Notes under the pieces: model-generated
What the model saw: only the letters and a program-made list of their open reading frames with translations
Databases searched by the model: none
What the model was told of the DNA's origin: nothing
Position numbers and translations under genes: made by a program
Shown here: piece after piece, positions 1,634-50,120 of the stretch
How positions within the stretch are numbered: the first letter of the stretch is position 1
How the letters are laid out: each line of letters opens with the position of its first letter
NCBI GenBank assembly: GCA_964016885.1
Contig: OZ024741.1
Location: 232,996,001-233,060,000, forward strand
Reading direction: 5' to 3'
Origin: Eledone cirrhosa
Lineage: Eukaryota
DNA: 64,000 nucleotides

Positions 1634-2068
1634 TTGCCTATGTAATACCACGAATTACGGCATTGCCTATGTAATACCACGAATTACGGCATTGCCTATG
1701 TAATACCACGAATTACGGCATTGCCTATGTAATACCACGAATTACGGCATTGCCTATGTAATACCACGAATTACGGCATTGCCTATGTAATACCACGAAT
1801 TACGGCATTGCCTATGTAATACCACGAATTACGGCATTGCCTATGTAATACCACGAATTACGGCATTGCCTATGTAATACCACGAATTACGGCATTGCCT
1901 ATGTAATACCACGAATTACGGCATTGCCTATGTAATACCACGAATTACGGCATTGCCTATGTAATACCACGAATTACGGCATTGCCTATGTAATACCACG
2001 AATTACGGCATTGCCTATGTAATACCACGAATTACGGCATTGCCTATGTAATACCACGAATTACGGCA
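1634..2068. repeat. Perfect 29-bp minisatellite, 15 copies
   Basis: Unit TTGCCTATGTAATACCACGAATTACGGCA repeated head-to-tail with no spacers. Confidence 0.97.
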
Positions 2069-2298
2069 TGCTCTATTTACTTGGCTACGGACATAATAAT
2101 GTGTGACCATTGATTTCAAGATACGTTTTATATTTTCGCCCTTAGGAAAATTCAAGTAAATTTGAAAGGTACATAATATTTTGGCCGCAAATAGCGCGTT
2201 TTGCTTTAGATCAAATTAAAATTAAAAATGTTAAGGAACGTGTGAGTGTAATTTTTCAGTAATAATATTTGATTCTACGTGTGTATATTTCTTGGGCT

Positions 2299-2361
<63 letters not shown>

Positions 2362-2454
2362 ATGTATATGTATATATATATGTATGTATATGTATATATA
2401 TATGTATTTATGTATATATATGTATTTATGTATATGTATATATATATATGTATG

Positions 2455-2485
<31 letters not shown>

Positions 2486-2534
2486 GTGTATATTTATATA
2501 TATGTGTATGTATATGTATATATATATGTGTAGG

Positions 2535-2601
<67 letters not shown>

Positions 2602-2603
<2 letters not shown>

Positions 2604-2864
2604 GAGAAACAAAATGGCGTAGGACAGAAGAAAGGAAAGGCACAGAAAAAAAGAAAGGAATCCCCAGTCACTGAAGAGGTCACAGAGTGTGTGACGAAAG
2701 GACTATGACTATATATAAACAACTATCTGGTTGTGGAACCAACCAACCAGAAATTTATAAGTTTGTAGATTTGTAAATTTATAAATTTATAAATATATAA
2801 TAAATTGAAGTGAAAGCAACTGGTGCGTGTGTTTCTTATTGGCAACATGACCCTCCCAAAGTAT

Positions 2865-2870
<6 letters not shown>
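2602..2870 (+). mobile_element. Short HHR-bearing Penelope pLTR-like / retrozyme-like element (family H1) in (TA)n
   Basis: Homologous to 15661-15953 (- strand) and 15967-16140 (+ strand tail). Flanked by (TA)n on both sides and contains an HHR. Confidence 0.7.
2666..2710 (+). ncRNA. Type I hammerhead ribozyme (H1)
   Basis: Stem I AGTCA/TGACT, CTGAAGA, one extra G, stem II GTCACA/TGTGAC, GAAA, minimal stem III AG/CT, triplet CUA. Confidence 0.75.
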
Positions 2871-2941
<71 letters not shown>

Positions 2942-2952
2942 TATATATATAA

Positions 2953-3008
<56 letters not shown>

Positions 3009-3055
3009 ATGTGTGTATATTTATATATATGTATATGTATATATATATGTGTAGG

Positions 3056-3103
<48 letters not shown>

Positions 3104-3106
3104 ATG

Positions 3107-3139
<33 letters not shown>

Positions 3140-3452
3140 GTATATATATATATGTGTATATTTGTATATATATATGTATGTATATATATGTATATGTATA
3201 TATATATATATGTATATATATGTATGTATATGTATATATATATGTATGTATATGTATATATATATATGTATGTATATGTATATATATATATGTATGTATA
3301 TGTATATATATATATATGTATGTATATATATATGTATGTCTATGTATATATATATATGTATGTATGTGTATATATATATCTATGTATGTATGTATATATA
3401 TATATGTATGTATGTATATGTATATATATGTATGTATGTATATGTATCTATA

Positions 3453-3499
<47 letters not shown>

Positions 3500-3514
3500 G
3501 TATATATGTGTGTG

Positions 3515-3547
<33 letters not shown>

Positions 3548-3600
3548 ATGTATATATGTGTGTGTATATATATATATATATTTACATATATATGTATATA

Positions 3601-3641
<41 letters not shown>

Positions 3642-3658
3642 ATATATGTGTGTGTATG

Positions 3659-3733
<75 letters not shown>

Positions 3734-3989: not shown

Positions 3990-6203
3990 TAGGACACCTC
4001 GGTTATATATATATCGACTTCACCTCATCCCACACTACACAAACCAAACACTCCATTCCCTACTCCCAACTCATCCGGATCCGCCGCCTCTGCAGCCGAG
4101 ATGCTGACTTCGAGTCCCAAGCCCTTTCTCTAGTCAGCCATTTCATCCGGAGAGGTTACCCCTCCCTCGTCCACATCGCCCTCACTCGCGCTCGTGCTGT
4201 CCACCGCCCCAACCCACACCCCTCGCACCTCCACCCACGTCTCCCCTTCCCGCTCACCTACCACCCCTCCACCGCACCATTCTCCGCCTCTTCCGACGCC
4301 TCCAGTCCGACCCCCTCCCCCTCTCCGTTCTTCTCCCCCCTCCCCGGTTCCCTTCCCTGCTCCAGGCCTCGCTGCCACACCTGCCCCCACATCACCAACA
4401 CTACCTCCTTCCAGGATCCCAACGCCTTGCGCTGCACCGCCCCAACCTCGTCTATGGACTTCACTGTACGGAGTGCAGCGCAACCCACGTCGCACAGACT
4501 GGACCTCACCTGGCGGATCGGTTCACGGGCACCTCCGCGATATTCGTCTCGGCGGGAGTTCCCCCATCGCCCGCCACTTTGGCTCCCCTGGACATTCCGC
4601 CCACCACCTCACAGTCTGTGGCCTGATCCAATGCCATGGGACACCCCCCACCCGCATCACGGTCGAGCAACACCATCTTCACCCTACAGACCCACACAAT
4701 CCCCCGGCCTGAACTCTTCACCCCTCTTCCTTTAACATTCGACCGTCCACCTCCCCCCCCCCACATCCCCCACTAACACCACTAACACGCTCCCCAGTTT
4801 CACCACCCCCTCCACTCCCAGCCTAGGGCCCACCCCACAACTAATAATACTAACACCCCCACCCTCCCCGGTCCTCCCCCAACTAATAATACCAACATCC
4901 CCACTCCTCATCCTAGCACCCACGCATCCACACCCCCACACGCAATCACCCACCTGCACATATATACACGCACTCACACTATTCACACACCCTATTACCA
5001 CCACTGACTCCCACCCACACATTCACATCTGATTACCCCACCACTAACATTACTAACACCCACCCAACCCGCCTTCCCATCACCACACACACACCAGTAC
5101 ACTACACTCCCTCCTACCGTCCCCAACACCTTCTCTCTCCCCGCTCCACCAACACCCCCTCAAACACACATCCCACTAACACCTCCACTAATATATACAC
5201 CAACCCCCACACCAACACCTTCTCTCTCCACCTTTCACACCTACCCATCCGCTCCTCTGACCACCGCACCTCCGCACATACATACACACGGTCCACAAAA
5301 CATACAGACCCTCACTATTCCTGTCATCCTCCTCTACTGCCTGCTAGCATCTCCCTACTGCTATCTCTTCATCCTGCCTTGACCCTCTGGCCACTTCCGG
5401 TTGCGCGCGCACCCCACATCTCTCCACTTCCTCACTACCATACCAGGATTTTACACCACTGGTCATCGCACCAGCTATCCATCCTACTAGACGCGGAATC
5501 TCCACCATCTGGTCTCACACCCCGTGGAAATACCCCAGGAACATACACACAAACAGACACATTATTTTCGAACCACGTCACCATACATCCACACCACATA
5601 TAAACACACACACACACACGTGCATATCCTCACATACACACACTCAGCCTCTGGACTTCACACGCCCCCTCTCCGCCACTCCCTCTGACGTCTCTCCATC
5701 CACATTCACACACCGACTTACACCCCACCCCATGTACACACTGTTTTCCCTTTTACCCGAACATGGAACCTCGTTCTTCCCCAAACTCTCACATTCACAT
5801 ATACACGTACACTTACACACACACACACCATCTCCAGCCCTCCCCGTTCGGACCCCCCACCCTGTCTCCCTTTTCCCTCTCCACCCCCTCCACCCACCAC
5901 CACCCCTACACGACTCACACCCTTTCACCACTTGTTTCTTTTATTTAAAAGATATTTTTTTACTCTCTAAAAAATGTTTTCCCCACTTTTTTTAAATCAT
6001 TTTAAATGTCTTTTTTGTCTCCCCCCCCCCCACCCTAGGAACTCTCTTCCTACCCACTTTTCTCCTGGTGAAAGGCTTATGCCGAAACGTCATCCCACAC
6101 CCTCCACTCTCAAGCGTAAAACTAATAATAACATTTGTACTGCCTCTTCACTTCTAAGTTTTTTTTTTGTTTTTGTTTTTTATTTTCTGTTTACTGTCTC
6201 AAC

Positions 6204-6809: not shown

Positions 6810-7385
<576 letters not shown>

Positions 7386-9110: not shown

Positions 9111-10187
9111 AATGTAAACACCCAAATGACATTATTATAAGTGTTTGGTCTTCCCTGCAAGGTCGAACTTATATGAGCATTTACTTAATATAATATATGA
9201 ACTAATAATTGTTTCTACTTTTGGCACAAGGCCAGCAATTACCCAGTGTATTACTGGTACTTTATTTTATCGACCCCGTAAGGATGAAACTATGAATATA
9301 TGAACTAATAATAAATTATAATTCGGTTTTCCCTAAAAGGTCGAACTTATATAATCACTTACTTAATATAATATATGAACAAATAATAAATTATAGTCCT
9401 GGTATTATGATCAATACACACATATATATATATAGCTGAAAACTCTGACTGCTTTAGGTTTAATTATAAGACCTGTTAATACTTTAGGCACTGTAACTTT
9501 TTAACAATAAATTCTTTAATAGTTATAACTGTAAATATCTCATAAATTATATTATAGAAAATGTCAGTGTTATAAGTAATTTTGTTAAAGATTACCTTTG
9601 TGGGAATATTGAACATTATATGTATATTTTCTTTCTTTCGCGGGCTTCGTTAATCCTTTAAATTTGTCTTCATAAAATTTTGAATTTTAGAAATTAACAT
9701 AATTATATTATAATATTAATACAAATACCCATCAACTTTTAAAACCTAAAATGTTGATTCTTTACCCTGAAATAACATAAATTAAATATTTTGAAAATTA
9801 ACCGCCAAAACTATATATGATTGTGTGTGTGTGTAAAGAAATTTGAGCATAAATTACTCCCCTTTGTCTCTCTCTCTCTTTAATTATCTGTCATTTGTCT
9901 TCTCAAGCTAAATACTAAATAAGTTATAACTTCAGCTACGTCTTCCGCTATACTTTCCTCTACCGCATAGTTCTATAGCAGTATTTCAAATATTAAAAAT
10001 TCTATAACTGTTGCATTAAGGCAATGTATTTCTTAAAATATATTACTCACACTCTCTCTATTGATTCTATTACGTTTTCTCATGTTCTCAATATTAGGGT
10101 ATAAATATTGAGTTTTCTCATAAGTTAATCACTACCTTGATTAAATCTTAACCATCTAACATGTCAGGGTGTGTCATGTATCATTTT

Positions 10188-10252
10188 ATTTTATCTGATG
10201 AGGACGTACTGTTGAACTTAATTCAGTACCTCAGAAATATGTATAATAAAAT
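10188..10252 (+). ncRNA. Type I hammerhead ribozyme (related to H2)
   Basis: Stem I ATTTTAT/ATAAAAT, CTGATGA 10195-10201, stem II GTACTG/CAGTAC with a mismatched base, GAAA 10234-10237, near-palindromic stem III ATATGTAT, triplet AUA. Confidence 0.75.
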
Positions 10253-10504
10253 TTAATTGATCACAAGAATATCTATTTTGTTAATATTTGAATTAATATT
10301 AATAACTCTGGAAAATATCTCTTGTAGAGTGCTTCCAATCTACTGTAAAACTCATTCTTTGATGTACTCATTGAATCTTGTTTAACTCTTTAATATATAT
10401 ATATGTATATATATGTATATATTGAGATAAGCGGAGCAAGCAAGATTCAAACAATTTTTTAAAATAAATTAAAAAATATAATTTAAATATTTACCTATTC
10501 CAAT

Positions 10505-10588
10505 TGCTTTTACCGATCGGTTTCACTTCACAAAAGATTGGAGATCCCTAGGGACTTCCAATGGAAAAGTTTAGATCATCAGAAAGCA
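10505..10588 (-). ncRNA. Type I hammerhead ribozyme at the 3' end of the APE-RT LINE
   Basis: Minus strand reads TGCTTT-CTGATGA-[51-nt bulged stem II with ATTGGA/TCCAAT and GTCCCT/AGGGAT]-GAA-ACCGATCGGT-A-AAAGCA. Stem III is a perfect 10-nt palindrome; triplet GUA. Confidence 0.85.
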
Positions 10589-13500
10589 TTTTCCTTTCCT
10601 AGGACTAAAAGTCCCAGGAACGGCAAATCGAGCAGAGAATTATTGTTTACGGTGGCATATCCGGGTGTAGGAGGCTTATCCGGGATTTCTTGAAGGAATT
10701 TATCCAAAGACTTCTTGAACTTGATGGGGTCTGTCTCTGCTTTGATGTGTTTTGGTGTAATGTTAAAGATTTGCAGGGCCAATTGAGGTGAAATAATTGT
10801 GCCGTATTGTTGTTATGTGATGCGAGTGGGATTTTTGTCGTGGGCGGATAGCACGGGGCCCAAGCCTTGGGTATACACTAAAAATGATGCCAATATCATT
10901 TGGGCTAAGCTGATGGAATATTTTCCACATCATACAGATAATGTAGCGCTCACGGCGACGTTGAAGAGAATAAAGTTTGAGCTTTTCTAATCGACCCCAA
11001 TAGTCAAGGCTTGTCATGCCCACTATCTTTTTTGTAATTGACTTTGGGGTGCTTCAACTTTCATGATACTTTGTTTCGTGTAGGGTGACCACAGTGGACA
11101 ACAGTATTCAAGGTGGTGTCGGGCAAAAATGGAGAACAGAAGGACAACAGTGTGGATATCTCTCGATTGGAAAGTTCTGAGAATCCAGGAACAGATTCTG
11201 CGGGCCATATCAACTTTGCTGTTTATATGAGTGGCCCAGCTTATATTGTTGTCCACAATTACTCCCAGGTCTCTGATGTTATTGGAAGCCACTAGAGTTT
11301 CACCCGAAGGAAGAGAGTATGGTAGTTTCAGGATATCCTTTTTTTCCAAAGTGGATTATTTCAAATTTATCCTCATTCAACAGCATATTATTCATCTCTG
11401 CCCATTGGATAACAGCCAGTAGGTCTGACTGAAGGCAAGTCCGGTCATCCACCTCATTGATAACCCTTTGGAGCTTGGAATCATCTGCGAAGATTCTGGT
11501 GTTGCTGTGTTTGATGATGTCAGTAATGTCATTAATGTAGATGATGAAAAGAAGTGGGCCCTACACATTGCCTTGTGGGACGCCACTGCTGATTTTGGCA
11601 GGGCTTGATTTTACTCCTTCGACTACAACATGCTGGGTTCTGCCTGTCAGGAAACATTTGATCCACTGTAGTAACCTTCCAGAGACACCAACATTGGATA
11701 GTTTTTTCTGTAGAATCTTATGATCAACCCTGTCGAAGGCCTTGCTGAAATCAAGGTAGACGACATCAGTGTTGGAGCCCTCTCCCAAGGCTCTCAAAAC
11801 ATCGTCAAAGAGATGCAGGAGCTGCGTTAGGCAGTCCCTTCCATTACAGAACCCATGTTGGTTGGAGTTCAGCAGGCCGTTGCTTTCAAGAAAGTGGGTT
11901 ATTCGTGATCTCACCACCCTCTTAAATACCTTGATAATATGAGAGGTGAGTGAGATCGAACGGTAGTTCACTGCAAGGGACTTATTTCCCTTTTTGATGA
12001 CTGGGACAACGGACTGGGACAGAAAGTTTTCAGGAATATAGCCAGTGTCCAGTGAGTTCTTCCACAGGTTAGGAAGAGGAGTTGCAAGTTGGTGACGACA
12101 CACCTTCAGGAGACAAGCAGGGAACCTGTCGGGGCTTACTGCTGGATTGTGTTTAATTTCGTTTATTGTTGCTAAGACATCAGGGGCGCCAAATGTTATG
12201 TCTGATATAGTGTGTGGGGGGTTAATATCACTGATACGGCCCAGATTGGCCATATCAGGGTTGCTGAAAACAGAGCAGTATTGTTTCTGCAGTATCTCGC
12301 CCATGGTTTTTGCATTGTCCTGGAGTGTGCCATTTTCATCAACTAGGGGGCCAACAGTGGAGACAGTGACCTTGTGTTTTTTAGCGAATGAGAAGAACAC
12401 TTTGGGGTTGAGTTTGATTTTCTCAATGGCCCACCTCTCTTCAGCTATTCTCTGGTTATTGATGATGTTGGTGGAAGTGTGTGCGTGTGTAAAAGACCAG
12501 TCGACATGTGATAGTTCGTTCATAATTGCATCCCAGTTGGCATTGTGGAGATCCATGTTATCAAATAGGTGGGCAGGAGAGAGGACGCTGGGATTAGCTT
12601 TCGGCTGGTGGAATCTCAGGTTACAAAGAACCATGTCATGGTCTGAGAGAAGGGTTTTTTCCACTGTAATATTATGTATAGTGTTAGTGTGGTTACTAAA
12701 CACTAGATCCAGAATGTTCTTCTGATGCCTCGTTAGTGCAAGGACAAGTTAGGACAAGAAAAACTCATTCATGAAGTCAAGAAGTGACTCGACAGCCTCT
12801 TTGTCAGTGGTTGAGGCTGTGGAGCCTGGTTTCAAACTACATGTAGACCAATCGACACAGGGTAGATTAAAGTCTCCCATCAAAAGTATATTGCTAAAAT
12901 GGCACTGTTTAATAAAGCATTTAATACTGTTGAGGCATTCTTTGAAACAGATTATAGGTGTTTGTGGTGGCCTATAGAGCCCAACTAATGTCAGGTCATT
13001 GGCTTTATTGTGCACAGTGACTGATTCACAGTATCCATTAGAGAATGTTGTATTGCCATCTGCCGTAAAGGAATCATGCAGGAAAATGGCAGTTCCACCC
13101 TTCCTTCTGCCAACACGATCCGCACGGATGGTTGTGAAATTTCTCACTCTTACTTCGGCCTCTAAATGGGAGTTGTCAAGGTGGGTCTCAGTAAGAATGA
13201 AGAAGGGGATGTGAAATCGATGGTTACCAACCCAATCCTCAATGAATTGGATCTTCCATTTCTGTGCATTGGTGGATGGGCTGATACCTTGTGTATTCAG
13301 TAAGAATGTGGAGGCTAGTGTGGTGGCTGGTTTTGACTGTTGCAGGGGGCTTGTTTTGTGATTGTATGTTAGTGACAGCAAGGTTGGTGTTGGGTGATGG
13401 CTAAAATGTTTTTCTCTATCTCTTATGCCAGGTTCATGGCTAAAAAAGAAAGATTTTTTTTTGTTCAGGGAGCAGTTTTTGATTGGATTTGTGGTTACAA

Positions 13501-14820
13501 ATATGGATAGGTTTGTAGTTCCATCTTTTGCTGTTGTTGTTGTTGTTGTTGTTGTTGTTGTATTTGTTGTAATTGTGTCTTTGCGAAAAGACTGGAGCAG
13601 CGTTATTTTTGTTGTTGTTGTGATCTTGTCTTTGTGACAAGACTGGCGCAGCATTACTTTTGTTGTTTTTGTTGTTGTAATCATGTCTTTGTGAGGAGAC
13701 TGGAACAGCATTACCGCAGCAGGGGGTGGCTTTATTGTGGTTTGTGGGTTGGCATGAAGCGCCTTTTCTGTTCGTGCGTTGTGTCCTAGGAAGATGAGTG
13801 AAGTGACAGTCAGTCAGCAGACATGCCTCTCACGTTGGGAATGTTGGCAGATTTTGGGACTGCGACCTATACGTGGAGGCAGCGTGCTTTGGTGATGGCT
13901 GGCAGTGATAGTGCGCCTAATACCCGGTAAATGGGTAAATATACAGTCGCTACGTGTGCATAGCCTCTGACGTAGTGAGTAGCGGCATATTTGGGGGTTT
14001 TTAGTATGTGTAGTGGGAGGTGCATACAGATCCATAGAACTTTTTTTTTATAGTTCTTTTGACTATGGCATTGCAGTGGTGGTGATGTGGGGGAAGAAAG
14101 CATTGGTGGTGGTGATGATGATGATGACAACTGTGGTGGGAGAGAGAGCAGTGGTCCATTACTAGCAGTTGGTGTGGCAGAAGATGTAGATGTGGCAGGA
14201 GATGGTGACGGTGGTCATGGTAATGGCGATAATGATGGCTGAGTGAGTGGCTGAGTGATACTGTCATTCAGTAGTTCAGCGATTATGCTTGAATTCATTA
14301 GTGGTTGCTCCTGGCTTTCTGGCTGTTGTTGTTGTTGTGGCTGTTGTTGTTGTTGTTGTGGCTGTTGTTGTTGTTGTTGTGGCTGTTGTTGTTGTTGTGG
14401 CTGTTGTTGTTGTGGCTGTTGTTGTTGTTGTTGTGTTTGTCCATTAGAGTAAATATGTCGAAGTTTTTCAAAATGGTTTTGAATTAGTTTGAAAGAGACT
14501 TCTACATGTTTTAGTTTGTTGTGTATCTGCTTAGCAGATCTCGTCGTAAATGTTTGGGCTGTTTTTTCAGCAATTTCATTCAGACATGACGCGTTAATGT
14601 TTGATGTTTGTGACAGAGAAAACCATGTGTTTATTAAGAGGTCAATTTCATTTTCAGACCAAAATGAGATCTCTGTTTGCTGAGATCAAAGTAAGTGAAT
14701 TTGTCACTACTTTAAAACAATAGCTTACGGTCTTCAAAATGCTTTTAATTAAGCATAAAGTGTATTACAAAATACATTATATATACATCCATATATATAT
14801 TGCTATTTCAGAGCTCCAAT
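10579..14820 (-). mobile_element. CR1/L2-group (jockey superfamily) LINE, near full length, decayed: ORF1 with CCCH finger and poly-Q, ORF2 APE-RT
   Basis: APE motifs ILTETHL, GGTAIF, GLYRPP, MGDFNLP, SDHDMV; RT motifs YRSISLTS, YLDFSKAFDRVDH, GVPQG, FADDSK; C-terminal LYSLQRRRERY and NNNSLLD. Contains stops, frameshifts and an apparent internal deletion near 12460. The 5' boundary is approximate. Confidence 0.9.
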
Positions 14821-14889
14821 TCTAATATATGTATATATATATATATGTATATATATATGTATATATTTATATGTATATATATATATATG

Positions 14890-15013
<124 letters not shown>

Positions 15014-15018
15014 TGTAT

Positions 15019-17209: not shown

Positions 17210-17379
17210 TACACACACACACATACACATACATACACACACACGCACATATATATATACACAAATAAATACATTCACACGCATACATACAAACACGAAT
17301 ATACATGTATATACACACAAATACACATAGACATATATACATACACAAATATATATATATATATATACATACATACATA

Positions 17380-19716
17380 CTGATAATTAGCGACCCCATA
17401 GTCAGGACGAGACGTACTCGACAGCAGAAGAGGACTATCCTCAGGAGGAAAATATGGAAACTAAAGGACCCCACAGCCAGAAATAAATTTCAAAGCATAT
17501 TACTTGATGCTTTCGACAGTAAGGAAGAGCATCTAGAATCGGACAATATAGAGGGACAGTGGGAATTTCTGAAAGCAAACCTGCTGTTGGCGACAGACGA
17601 AGTCTGTGGCTGGAGCAGGCCTGTAGGCAGGAGGAGAGTAACTTGGTGGTGGAACAGTAGGGTGGAGGGGTCAATTAAGGCCAAAAAGCAGGCTTGGAAA
17701 GTATGGCGGGATGGGGGAAGTAGAGTAGACTATCAAGTGGCCAGGAGGGAAGCTAGGAGAGAAGTGTACTTAGCAAGAAGGGAAGCTGAGGAAAGAAAGT
17801 TCAAGCATGTTCTACAACGCGATGACCAAAAACGTGAGGTGTTCAGGATTGCCAGGCAATGCGTCAAGGAAAACCGTGATATTGTCGGGGAGAAGTGTGT
17901 ACTTAACGATGATGGCATACTTGCCATCACCGACACTGATAAGAAGGTAGCTTGGAAGTGTCACTATGAAAGGCTACTAAATGAGGAGAATAAATGGGAG
18001 AAAGACAGTCTCCCCCATATCGACCCGATAGAGGGACCAGCAGTGTTAGTCGAGGGGAGTATAATAAGTAAGGCAATCAAGGATATGAAGACGAGTAAGG
18101 CGGCTGGGCCTTCGGAAATAGTTGCTGAGATGCTGAAGGCATCTGGCACGGTGGGACACACCGTGGTCACCCGCATAGTTAACCAAGTCGTACAGAATGG
18201 GGTTGTTCCGAAGGACTGGCATAGCAGCATCATCGTTAACTGTTATAAGGGTAAAGGAGACGCCCTAGATAGGAGTAACTATAGAGGCATTAAATTAATC
18301 GACCAGGTCATGAAGGTCACGGAAAAAGTAATAGCGCAACTAATCAGAGAGAGAATTGACCTAGATGAAATGCAGTTCGGGTTTGTGTCAGGCAAAAGCA
18401 CCACAGACGCTCTTTTCATAGTACGACAACTACAGGAGAAGTACCTAGCTAAAGGTAAACCCCTCTACTTAGCTTTTGTCGACCTGGAGAAAGCCTTCGA
18501 CAGAGTCCCCCGCTCCATTATCTGGTGGGCTCTTAGAAAACTAGGCGTTGACGAATGGCTTGTGAGGGCTATACAAGCCATGTATAAAGAAACAGTCAGC
18601 AAGGTTAGAATTAACAACGAATATAGTGAAGAGTTTAGCGTAAAAGTTGGCGTCCATCAGGGCTCTGTTCTCAGCCCCCTACTATTTATTATTGCCCTTC
18701 AGGCTATAACAGAGGAGTTCAAGACAGGCTGCCCATGGGAACTCCTATACGCAGACGACCTGACACTCATAGCGGAATCAATGGCCGAGCTAGAGAAGAA
18801 ATTCCAAACATGGAAGCACGGCCTAGAGTCAAAAGGACTTAAAATTAACCTGGCTAAGACCAAAGTTCTAGTTTGTAGGAAAGAAAACAAGGCGCCGGTC
18901 CCTTCTGGGAAATGGTCGTGCTCGGTGTGTAGGAAAGGCGTAGGTAGAAACTCCATTTTATGTCCTAATTGCAAAGTATGGGTGCATAAAAGATGTAGTG
19001 GGATCACAGGTAAGCTAACTAAGAACATAGATTTTACATGTGGCCGGTGTTCTGGTGCAATAAGTAGCAGCAAGTGCCCACACAATACTAGCTCTTTCAA
19101 TTGCGCAGAGGGTTCTATAGAAATAGTGGACAGCTTCCGTTACCTGGGCGATAAAATCAGCAGTGGGGGAGGGTGCTCTGAAAGTACTGTAGCTAGAGTC
19201 AGAACTGGTTGGAAAAAGTTCAGAGAGCTTATACCACTATTAGCTGCTAAAGGGTTCTCCCTAAAAATGAAAGGCAGGTTGTACGATGCCTGCATACGAA
19301 CAGCAATGTTGCATGGTAGTGAGACCTGGGCATTGTGTGCAGAGGATATACGCAGACTAGAGAGGAACGAAGCTTGCATGCTCCGCTGGATGTGTAACAG
19401 TAATATACGTGAACGGCAAAGCATAAACGAACTAAGGAAAAAATTAGAGATAAGAGGGATCAGATGTTGTTTACTCGAGAGAAGGCTGCGTTGGTATGGA
19501 CACGTGATGCGCATGAAAGTCGATAGCTGTATAACAAAGTGCAGGGCAATAAAGATAGACGGTAGCCACGGAATAGGCAGACCTAGAAAAACATGGGATG
19601 AGCTGATAAACTCCGACCTCACACACTTACACCTCTCCAAGACAATGTCACTGGACCGAGACCTTTGGCGGTACTCAGTAACAGAGAAGACCCGCCTTGC
19701 CAGTAGGCATCTCTAA
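17380..19716 (+). CDS. LINE reverse transcriptase (APE domain lost by 5' truncation)
   Basis: 803-aa ORF 17305-19716 whose first ~25 codons are microsatellite read-through. Confidence 0.85.
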
Positions 19717-20070
19717 CAAAATACACCCCGTCCCGCCACCACCCCCACCACATCCACACCACCCCGTTCTATGTAAAGTTGTGTTGGTGCCGCGCCATCC
19801 AGGCCGAAACAAATGAGATCGTGTAGGTGTCACGACAAAAAAACACACAGTCCACGCTGTAATGTGGCCGTGTAAGCAACACGGTAAAAACCTCCCAGAC
19901 CCACACTGTAAATGTGGTTGGTGTTAGGAAGGGCATCCAACTGTAGAAAACCGGCCAGACAGCCCTATGCGAGCAAGACAATCACTCTTGCCTCAAGTGG
20001 GACTACCCCCGTCCAAACCCATGCAAGCGTGGAACACGGACGTTAAACGTTGATGATGATAATGATGATA
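17380..20070 (+). mobile_element. RTE-X-like LINE, 5'-truncated, open RT ORF with PHD finger, (GAT)n tail
   Basis: Uninterrupted ORF to 19716. Motifs [53 protein letters not shown]4HC3 insert, [18 protein letters not shown]. Tail GGACGTTAAACGTTGATGATGAT. Confidence 0.95.
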
Positions 20071-49967: not shown

Positions 49968-50120
49968 TCTCTCTCTCTCTCTCTCCATCCCTCTCTCTCC
50001 ATCCCTCTCTCTCCATCCCTCTCTCTCCATCCCTCTCTCTCCATCCCTCTCTCTCCATCCCTCTCTCTCCATCCCTCTCTCTCCATCCCTCTCTCTCCAT
50101 CCCTCTCTCTCCATCCCTCT
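49968..50120. repeat. 14-bp minisatellite (CCATCCCTCTCTCT)n
   Basis: About 10 near-perfect copies. Confidence 0.95.

What the first reader, a model, noticed from the sequence alone, without database searches (positions are those of the whole stretch)
10420..10640. Hammerhead cassette fused to the 3' end of an APE-RT (CR1/L2-group) LINE
Seen on the minus strand: ORF2 ends NNNSLLDL, then an 11-bp hairpin (TTCCTGGGACT-TTT-AGTCCTAGGAA), then a complete HHR in the same orientation whose CTGATGA supplies the TGA stop of the terminal ORF (10579). An ~80-nt tail and (TA)n follow, with no separate poly-A tail. Known: LINE ribozymes are typically 5' HDV-like, whereas HHRs typify PLEs. Inference: either this LINE family uses a 3' HHR to define its RNA end, or it is a LINE/PLE chimera made by template switching or adjacent insertion.
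Basis: partly seen in the sequence, partly recalled or inferred. Interest (0 to 1): 0.75.

Follow-up and report, generated by a model that had tools for sequence, protein, structure and literature searches.

The report
One-off retrozyme stub on dead LINE
The hammerhead motif is real but belongs to a separate, common 0.5-kb repeat of a known kind (a retrozyme), and a 205-base stub of it likely landed by chance on the clipped end of one dead LINE copy, so this LINE family does not carry a ribozyme at its end.

Summary
The motifs are present as described, but the main interpretation fails. All 29 other fetched copies of this LINE's 3' end leave the window sequence at 10628 and continue into their own hammerhead-free 3' UTR. 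The hairpin, hammerhead and tail (10627-10423) are a 5'-truncated piece of a separate ~488-nt tandem repeat, a non-LTR retrozyme: 1,931 search candidates, 0 of 29 other copies joined to this LINE. The junction occurs once in the 3-Gb genome. The stop codon inside the ribozyme core is an accident of that join. The hammerhead fold covaries across subfamilies. Its U-U mismatch at the base of stem II is a published variant. The family's two fixed 3' ends, two-armed insertions and (TA)n targets point to Penelope-type mobilisation; no partner element was found. The LINE copy has 44 private changes in 1,773 bases against 0 in 205 for the stub, which favours sequential insertion over a template switch (p=0.012). 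No read set confirmed the junction. The scan reported similar retrozymes and another one-off retrozyme-LINE chimera elsewhere in this genome. Ordinary; interest 0.15.

The parts
10628..14800 (-). Decayed APE-RT LINE copy with a Myb/SANT-like upstream frame; ORF2 broken by stops (12749, 11561) and frameshifts (near 11300-11355, 11023-11053, 10763-10812); its last ~100 bases and own repeat tail are missing. The 5' boundary is approximate.
   Evidence: family comparison
10627..10628 (-). LINE / retrozyme junction, blunt (0-1 base of shared sequence), single copy in the genome
10423..10627 (-). 205-nt 5'-truncated stub of a ~488-nt tandem non-LTR retrozyme, ending at the family's commonest fixed 3' end
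10596..10620 (-). 11-bp hairpin upstream of the hammerhead; part of the retrozyme monomer, not of the LINE
10505..10588 (-). Type I hammerhead: 6-bp stem I, CUGAUGA core 10582-10576, long stem II with U-U at 10.1-11.1, GAAA, 3-bp palindromic stem III; predicted cut 10511/10510
10423..10510 (-). 88-nt AT-rich retrozyme sequence between the predicted cut and the fixed insertion end
10396..10422 (.). (TA)n microsatellite, the inferred insertion target
   Evidence: 44 of 53 family copies have TA repeats at their 3' flank
10188..10252 (+). Unrelated second hammerhead of another high-copy repeat, tail-to-tail with the stub across the same (TA)n
14825..15018 (.). (TA)n tract on the 5' side of the LINE copy

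Best explanation
This is a single-copy join between a decayed LINE and a 205-base stub of an unrelated hammerhead retrozyme, likely made when a Penelope-type enzyme copied the retrozyme RNA into the (TA)n tail of the already resident LINE. Shown: the two parts belong to separate repeat families, the join is unique in the assembly, and the LINE lacks its last ~100 bases. Inferred steps: (1) the LINE inserted first into a (TA)n tract and decayed; (2) a Penelope-like RT/GIY-YIG protein acting in trans nicked the (TA)n and began reverse transcription at the retrozyme's fixed internal site, 88 nt downstream of the predicted ribozyme cut; (3) it copied through the cut site, so the template was uncut, multimeric or circular RNA; (4) copying stopped after 205 nt and the new end was joined upstream with loss of the LINE's 3' end, either during integration or by a later small deletion. 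The ribozyme most likely serves the retrozyme's own cycle (cutting multimeric transcripts to unit length, probably as a dimer) and has no role for the LINE.
For: LINE side: 39 of 39 other scored matches stop at query base 271-279, that is at window 10630-10622; 29 of 29 fetched copies continue into one shared 3' UTR, in most copies followed by short repeats and (TA)n; 0 of 29 have a hammerhead or a CUGANGA there; RAD-seq reads of two other samples break at 10628/10634 into that UTR (143+228 and 179+192 reads). Retrozyme side: 1,931 candidates, 40 scored; 0 of 29 other copies preceded by the LINE; head-to-tail period 485-488 nt; monomer 34% GC with stops in all six frames; the LINE's ORF2 matches 0 of 89 retrozyme loci, some of them the same place fetched twice. 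Junction: 1 match in 3.0 Gb for a 21-mer with up to 1 mismatch and 1 for a gapped pattern allowing 0-30 bases between the two sides. Penelope-type signature: of 53 copies 40 end at monomer position 208-212 and 6 at 320, 5' ends are scattered, 11 are two-armed; 5 of those 11 pair a 211-212 end with a 320 end; a 67-70% relative ends at the same 320 site. Two internal start sites, AT-rich targets and inverted 5'-truncated arms are described for Penelope-like elements (PMC11167929, PMC8557442). Joins to other elements are common: 15 of 53 copies (this one included) have a non-TA 5' flank, and 2 of them sit on the intact tail of an RTE-type LINE at different monomer positions. Order: 44 private changes in 1,773 LINE bases against 0 in 205 retrozyme bases, Fisher p=0.012.
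Against: No autonomous Penelope-like element carrying this repeat as its terminal repeat was found in 38 GIY-YIG loci, out of 10,596 candidates, so the mobilising enzyme is inferred. The age test rests on 205 bases and on copies chosen for similarity to the window, and a rare older LINE subfamily could inflate the private changes. There is no microhomology or target duplication to mark the event, because both flanks are (TA)n. No contig or read in four runs spans the junction, so it is seen only in this assembly. The DNA searches scored only 40 of 1,931-3,710 candidates, and the junction patterns cover only joins within about 30 bases of this one. Self-cleavage is not shown, and 8 of 9 predicted frog retrozyme dimers failed to cut in one study (bioRxiv 10.64898/2026.07.22.740005).
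Confidence: 0.8

Rival explanations
1. One-step template-switch chimera: reverse transcription began on the retrozyme RNA at its fixed end and jumped after 205 nt onto a LINE RNA about 100 nt inside its 3' end, giving one 4.4-kb insertion between two (TA)n tracts.
For: Same orientation, blunt junction, nearly full-length LINE, (TA)n on both outer sides. The family's two-armed and scrambled copies show frequent jumps during copying. An earlier unreviewed note reads another locus this way (e1-8817471).
Against: The LINE part is more decayed than the stub: 2.5% against 0% private changes, p=0.012 over 1,773 bases and p=0.022 over the last 273. Other copies sit directly on intact tails of resident elements, and one (L041) lies ~370 bases downstream of an intact 3' tip of this same LINE, as nesting in microsatellites predicts.
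Confidence: 0.12
2. Assembly artefact: two repeats were mis-joined, or ~100-400 bases between them collapsed.
For: Zero depth over 10631-10638 and no spanning record in four runs. The locus is wholly repetitive.
Against: Those runs are contigs or reduced-representation reads whose relation to the assembled individual is unknown, and the tool warns that a hole proves nothing. The LINE copy carries its private changes right up to the junction (10653, 10639), and 15 of 53 family copies have comparable non-TA joins.
Confidence: 0.06
3. A LINE family or subfamily that uses a 3' hammerhead to define its RNA end.
For: Only the local layout: same strand, ribozyme core supplying a stop codon, no poly-A.
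Against: 0 of 29 LINE copies and 0 of 29 hammerhead copies share the join; the junction is unique; the natural stop is EWAMVPKH-stop; sequence downstream of the predicted cut is present in the insertion.
Confidence: 0.02

Closest known systems
Metazoan non-LTR retrozymes (Cervera and de la Pena 2020, PMC7229834, 12 passages read; Li, Clavereau and Pollet 2026, bioRxiv 10.64898/2026.07.22.740005, parts 1-3 of 5 read)
   Same: Non-coding, low-GC (34%) tandem unit with one type I hammerhead per unit; dispersed monomers and partial multimers; short palindromic stem III suited to dimer cleavage; co-occurs with Penelope-like elements in the genome.
   Different: Unit of ~488 nt is above the 170-400 nt expressed RNAs of the 2020 paper but inside the 51-972 bp range of the 2026 survey; stem II is very long and starts with U-U; arrays seen are short (at most ~2.2 units); expression, cleavage and circles are untested; no matching Penelope terminal repeat was found.
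Penelope-like element pseudo-LTR hammerheads and insertion signature (Cervera and de la Pena 2014, PMC4209133, parts 1-2 of 4 read; Frangieh et al. 2024, PMC11167929, parts 1-2 of 4 read; Craig et al. 2021, PMC8557442, 12 passages read)
   Same: Partial tandems, 5' truncation, inverted arms, two fixed 3' ends, AT-rich or (TA)n targets, copying through an uncut ribozyme.
   Different: No RT or GIY-YIG frame in the unit; the two ends are 108 nt apart rather than the 30-40 bp tail described; the hammerhead lacks the G10.1-C11.1 pair reported as conserved there.
Natural hammerheads with a U10.1-U11.1 mismatch (Perreault et al. 2011, PMC3088659, passages read)
   Same: Same mismatch at the base of stem II, there said to support more cleavage than other mispairs.
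   Different: Here it is the majority state of a repeat family (63 of 69 sequences unpaired at this position) and is followed by a ~50-nt stem II.
APE-RT LINEs of the CR1/L2 group, and LINE-borne 5' HDV-like ribozymes (group label recalled from the C-terminal motif, not tested; HDV link seen as a statement in PMC4209133 and in search listings)
   Same: APE endonuclease plus RT, a 3' UTR with a terminal stem-loop and short tandem repeats in the intact family copies.
   Different: The family has no hammerhead in its 3' UTR; this copy has lost that UTR. Its 5' end was not examined for a ribozyme beyond the Rfam scan (no match).
Template-switch chimeras such as U6-L1 (recalled; search returned one listing, PMC2912911, not read)
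   Same: Two unrelated RNAs' sequences joined in one orientation at one site.
   Different: In those the LINE forms the 3' part; here the LINE is 5' and is the more decayed part.

Membership tests
Type I hammerhead ribozyme | Core CUGANGA, GAAA and NUH in order | tested here: met
   core columns at least 71 of 73 conserved in family copies
Type I hammerhead ribozyme | Stems I, II and III pair, with compensatory change | tested here: met
   Across subfamilies 57 cells changed on both sides against 31.8 in shuffles, 0 of 500 as high, slid controls 6-22 (core and stem III were fixed by the search pattern in 30 of 34 rows). Weak within the young subfamily: 23 against 22.9. Relatedness inflates these counts.
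Type I hammerhead ribozyme | Standard pair at 10.1-11.1 (usually G-C) | tested here: not met
   U-U in this copy; unpaired in 63 of 69. A tolerated natural variant according to PMC3088659.
Type I hammerhead ribozyme | Self-cleavage after the NUH | not testable with these tools
   No RNA run was available; 5' ends of copies are not enriched at the cut (2 of 53 within 115-122, about 0.9 expected)
Non-LTR retrozyme | Short non-coding low-GC unit in head-to-tail tandem, one type I hammerhead per unit | tested here: met
   loci with two hammerheads one period apart, e.g. L057, L058, L064, L074
Non-LTR retrozyme | Many dispersed genomic copies | tested here: met
   1,931 and 2,472 candidates; 446 exact matches to the family hammerhead pattern, 0 for the reversed control
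Non-LTR retrozyme | Expressed as unit-length linear and circular RNA | not testable with these tools
   No RNA holder listed
Autonomous Penelope-like element | RT plus GIY-YIG frame flanked by this repeat as pseudo-LTR | tested here: not met
   No coding frame in the unit; no attachment in 38 GIY-YIG loci, where the one relative found is a separate insertion ~240 bases of (TA)n away from that element's own end. The sample is small against 10,596 candidates.
Penelope-mobilised non-autonomous element | Fixed internal 3' ends, inverted 5' arms, AT-rich targets | tested here: met
LINE family with a 3' ribozyme | Ribozyme shared by independent copies of the LINE | tested here: not met
   0 of 29; junction unique
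CR1/L2-group LINE | APE endonuclease plus RT in ORF2 | tested here: met
CR1/L2-group LINE | RT phylogeny places it in the CR1/L2 group | not tested
   No reference set was at hand; the atlas look-up gave no answer

The most novel reading that the evidence does not exclude
A Penelope-type reverse transcriptase started on the retrozyme RNA and switched onto a LINE messenger, inserting a nearly full-length LINE in trans. That would be a genomic record of cross-order template switching that can hand a self-cleaving 3' module to a LINE.
Probability: 0.1. Interest if true: 0.45.

Novelty: new member of a known kind. Interest (0 to 1): 0.15.

Why it matters
A LINE family with a 3' hammerhead would have been a surprise, but the copy survey rules it out. 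What remains is one more retrozyme family in a genome rich in them, and an example of how elements that target (TA)n pile up and clip one another, producing false composites in window-level reading. The family has modest value for the open question of how animal retrozymes move: its two fixed ends 108 nt apart give defined predicted start sites for an in vitro Penelope priming assay, and its U-U stem II base is a natural variant to assay. The scan has noted the same signature for several other families in this genome.

Tried and rejected
Rfam: 0 matches in the window at gathering scores and no hammerhead family at E up to 10 around the finding; my reading is that the long stem II escapes the models, and the motif was judged by descriptor and covariation instead. 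Autonomous partner: 20 short and 18 long GIY-YIG loci gave no linked pseudo-LTR. Enrichment of copy ends at the predicted cut: 1 of 53 3' ends (L063) and 2 of 53 5' ends nearby, not above chance. Expression: no RNA holder listed. Junction in other samples: not spanned in X1, X3, X21, X23, inconclusive. Target-site duplication: cannot be read in (TA)n flanks. Covariation in the young subfamily alone: at shuffle level on four of five measures. In one search, 60 loci were examined and 7 dropped as duplicates by flank; 4 are true repeats of a place and 3 (L070, L079, L086) were probably dropped only because both flanks are pure TA. The first translation was out of frame and was redone. Literature: searches listed no paper on a LINE family with a 3' hammerhead, judged from titles and abstract starts only; a repeat annotation of one octopus species has 0 occurrences of 'ribozyme' in its main text. 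No supplements were opened; those of the 2026 preprint list retrozyme families for 35 species and could hold a relative.

Full report
Observation. On the minus strand the window holds a decayed APE-RT LINE running from about 14800 down to 10628. Pfam finds Exo_endo_phos and Exo_endo_phos_2 in the 12752-13813 frame, RVT_1 in 11564-12748 and 11303-11560, and a Myb/SANT-like domain just under the cut-off in 14218-14685. ORF2 is cut into six frames by stops and frameshifts. Directly after it come the 11-bp hairpin (10620-10596), a type I hammerhead (10588-10505, predicted cut 10511/10510), an 88-nt tail and (TA)n at 10422-10396. Rfam reports no hammerhead. A descriptor of my own finds this motif and six others in the window, against 0.03 per shuffled window.

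Is the hammerhead part of the LINE family? No. A search of the 3.0-Gb own genome with window 10420-10900 gave 3,710 candidates, 40 scored; the 39 non-self matches all stop at query base 271-279. The 29 fetched copies continue into one shared ~100-base 3' end, in most copies followed by short repeats and (TA)n. None has a hammerhead or a CUGANGA there. Twelve of 29 end NNNSLLEWAMVPKH-stop, the rest are variants, and none reads like the window. The stop codon inside the ribozyme core is therefore read-through across a junction. RAD-seq reads of two other samples break off at 10628 and 10634 into that native UTR in 143+228 and 179+192 reads.

What the cassette is. Searching with 10430-10632 gave 1,931 candidates, 40 scored, 96-99% identical, nearly all starting at window 10627. 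The 29 other fetched copies are preceded by their own shared upstream sequence or by (TA)n, never by this LINE. Several hold head-to-tail repeats with a period of 485-488 bases. The unit is 34% GC and has stops in all six frames. A pattern for the family hammerhead has 446 exact matches and 0 for its reversed control. This fits the non-LTR retrozymes of animals (PMC7229834, passages read; bioRxiv 10.64898/2026.07.22.740005, parts 1-3 of 5). The LINE's ORF2 matches none of 89 retrozyme loci, and the unit matches none of 29 LINE loci.

The junction is unique. A 21-mer across it, with up to one mismatch, occurs once. A gapped pattern allowing 0-30 bases between the LINE end and the hairpin also occurs once. 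Joins at more distant breakpoints are not covered by these patterns. The join is blunt. No contig or read in four public runs spans it; the tool warns that such a hole proves nothing, so polymorphism or an assembly error stay open.

Is the hammerhead fold real? Within the young subfamily (69 sequences) covariation is mostly at shuffle level, with 82% of cells paired against 29-47% for slid partners. With 30 copies taken in genome order from the pattern search plus 3 others, cells changed on both sides number 57 against 31.8 in shuffles, 0 of 500 as high; the core and stem III were fixed by the pattern, and relatedness inflates the count. Stem II begins with a mismatch in 63 of 69 sequences, mostly U-U, a natural variant already described (PMC3088659, passages read). 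This copy's basal stem II has two more mismatches than the best subfamilies, and its predicted monomer fold hides the core (-23.2 against -18.7 kcal/mol), while the palindromic stem III can pair between two molecules. Dimer-dependent, weak cleavage is what is reported for Penelope hammerheads (PMC4209133, parts 1-2 of 4). Cleavage itself is untested.

How the family moves. Of 53 copies (60 loci examined, 7 dropped as duplicates, 3 of them probably wrongly), 40 end at unit position 208-212 and 6 at 320, while 5' ends are scattered; 11 are two-armed, and 5 of the 11 pair a 211-212 end with a 320 end. 44 of 53 have TA repeats at the 3' flank. A 67-70% identical relative with a ~459-base unit ends at the same 320 site. 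Two internal start sites on an uncut RNA, AT-rich targets and inverted truncated arms are Penelope traits (PMC11167929, parts 1-2 of 4; PMC8557442, passages). The test of paired ends followed a lead from earlier unreviewed notes. The genome has many GIY-YIG elements (10,596 candidates), but none of 38 loci examined carries this unit as its terminal repeat. The enzyme is inferred.

How the join arose. The window stub ends at the main fixed end and runs through the predicted cut site, so its template was not an RNA ending at the cut. At the 5' side, 27 of 53 copies meet (TA)n, 11 meet an inverted arm and 15 meet other sequence, including two on the intact tail of an RTE-type LINE at different unit positions and two on another repeat's tail. 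Such joins are a routine result of sharing microsatellite targets. The LINE copy has 44 private changes in 1,773 bases and the stub 0 in 205 (p=0.012); in the last 273 bases the window LINE is more private (2.56%) than all 29 other copies (maximum 1.83%). The LINE is therefore probably older, and the retrozyme probably inserted into its (TA)n tail with loss of about 100 bases of LINE 3' end, at integration or later. I put this at 0.80, a one-step template switch at 0.12, an assembly artefact at 0.06 and a LINE family with a 3' hammerhead at 0.02.

Novelty. The retrozyme family may be unnamed, but it is a member of a known kind, and the LINE fusion is a one-off. Paper searches listed nothing on a LINE family with a 3' hammerhead, judged from listings only. 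The CR1/L2 label is recalled from motifs and was not tested. Interest 0.15.

Noticed in passing
window 10070-10395, + strand (core at 10195-10201): A second, unrelated hammerhead repeat of higher read depth lies tail-to-tail with the stub across the same (TA)n.
   Followed up: partly
window cores at 6920 (+), 16398 (-), 21549 (+), 30831 (-), 30854 (+): Five further type I hammerheads: 16398 and 21549 are the same family in opposite orientations on either side of the RTE-type LINE; 30831 and 30854 form a tight inverted pair.
   Followed up: no
window 17269-20064, + strand: An RTE-type LINE (label recalled) with an open 815-aa frame holding RVT_1 and a PHD-like finger; two retrozyme copies elsewhere (L040, L084) sit on the tail of this family.
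   Followed up: partly
L113:5996-6962: A 67-70% identical retrozyme relative with a ~459-base unit, compensatory stems I and II, the same U-U at the base of stem II, the same 3' end and, by eye, a different-sequence hairpin at the same place upstream of the hammerhead.
   Followed up: partly
L113:2230-5780: A Penelope-like element (RT plus GIY-YIG) whose terminal region seems to hold a minimal hammerhead variant with a changed core near 5610-5635, seen by eye; related minimal motifs lie downstream of long frames in L115, L116, L118 and L126.
   Followed up: no
L113, L117, L121, L122, L124, L127 hammerheads: A mismatch at positions 10.1-11.1 (U-U or A-A) recurs in several unrelated hammerhead families of this genome (by eye).
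   Followed up: no
L074, L075, L081, L082, L087: An older subfamily has A-G at 10.1-11.1 and a nearly fully paired basal stem II, a natural comparison for cleavage assays.
   Followed up: partly
L041:710-750: An intact 3' tip of the same LINE family lies about 370 bases upstream of a retrozyme copy in the same orientation, with microsatellite in between: a possible unclipped analogue of the window's arrangement.
   Followed up: partly
window 1634-2069 and 49977-50120: Perfect tandem arrays: 15 copies of a 29-mer and 10 copies of a 14-mer, both 100% matches.
   Followed up: no
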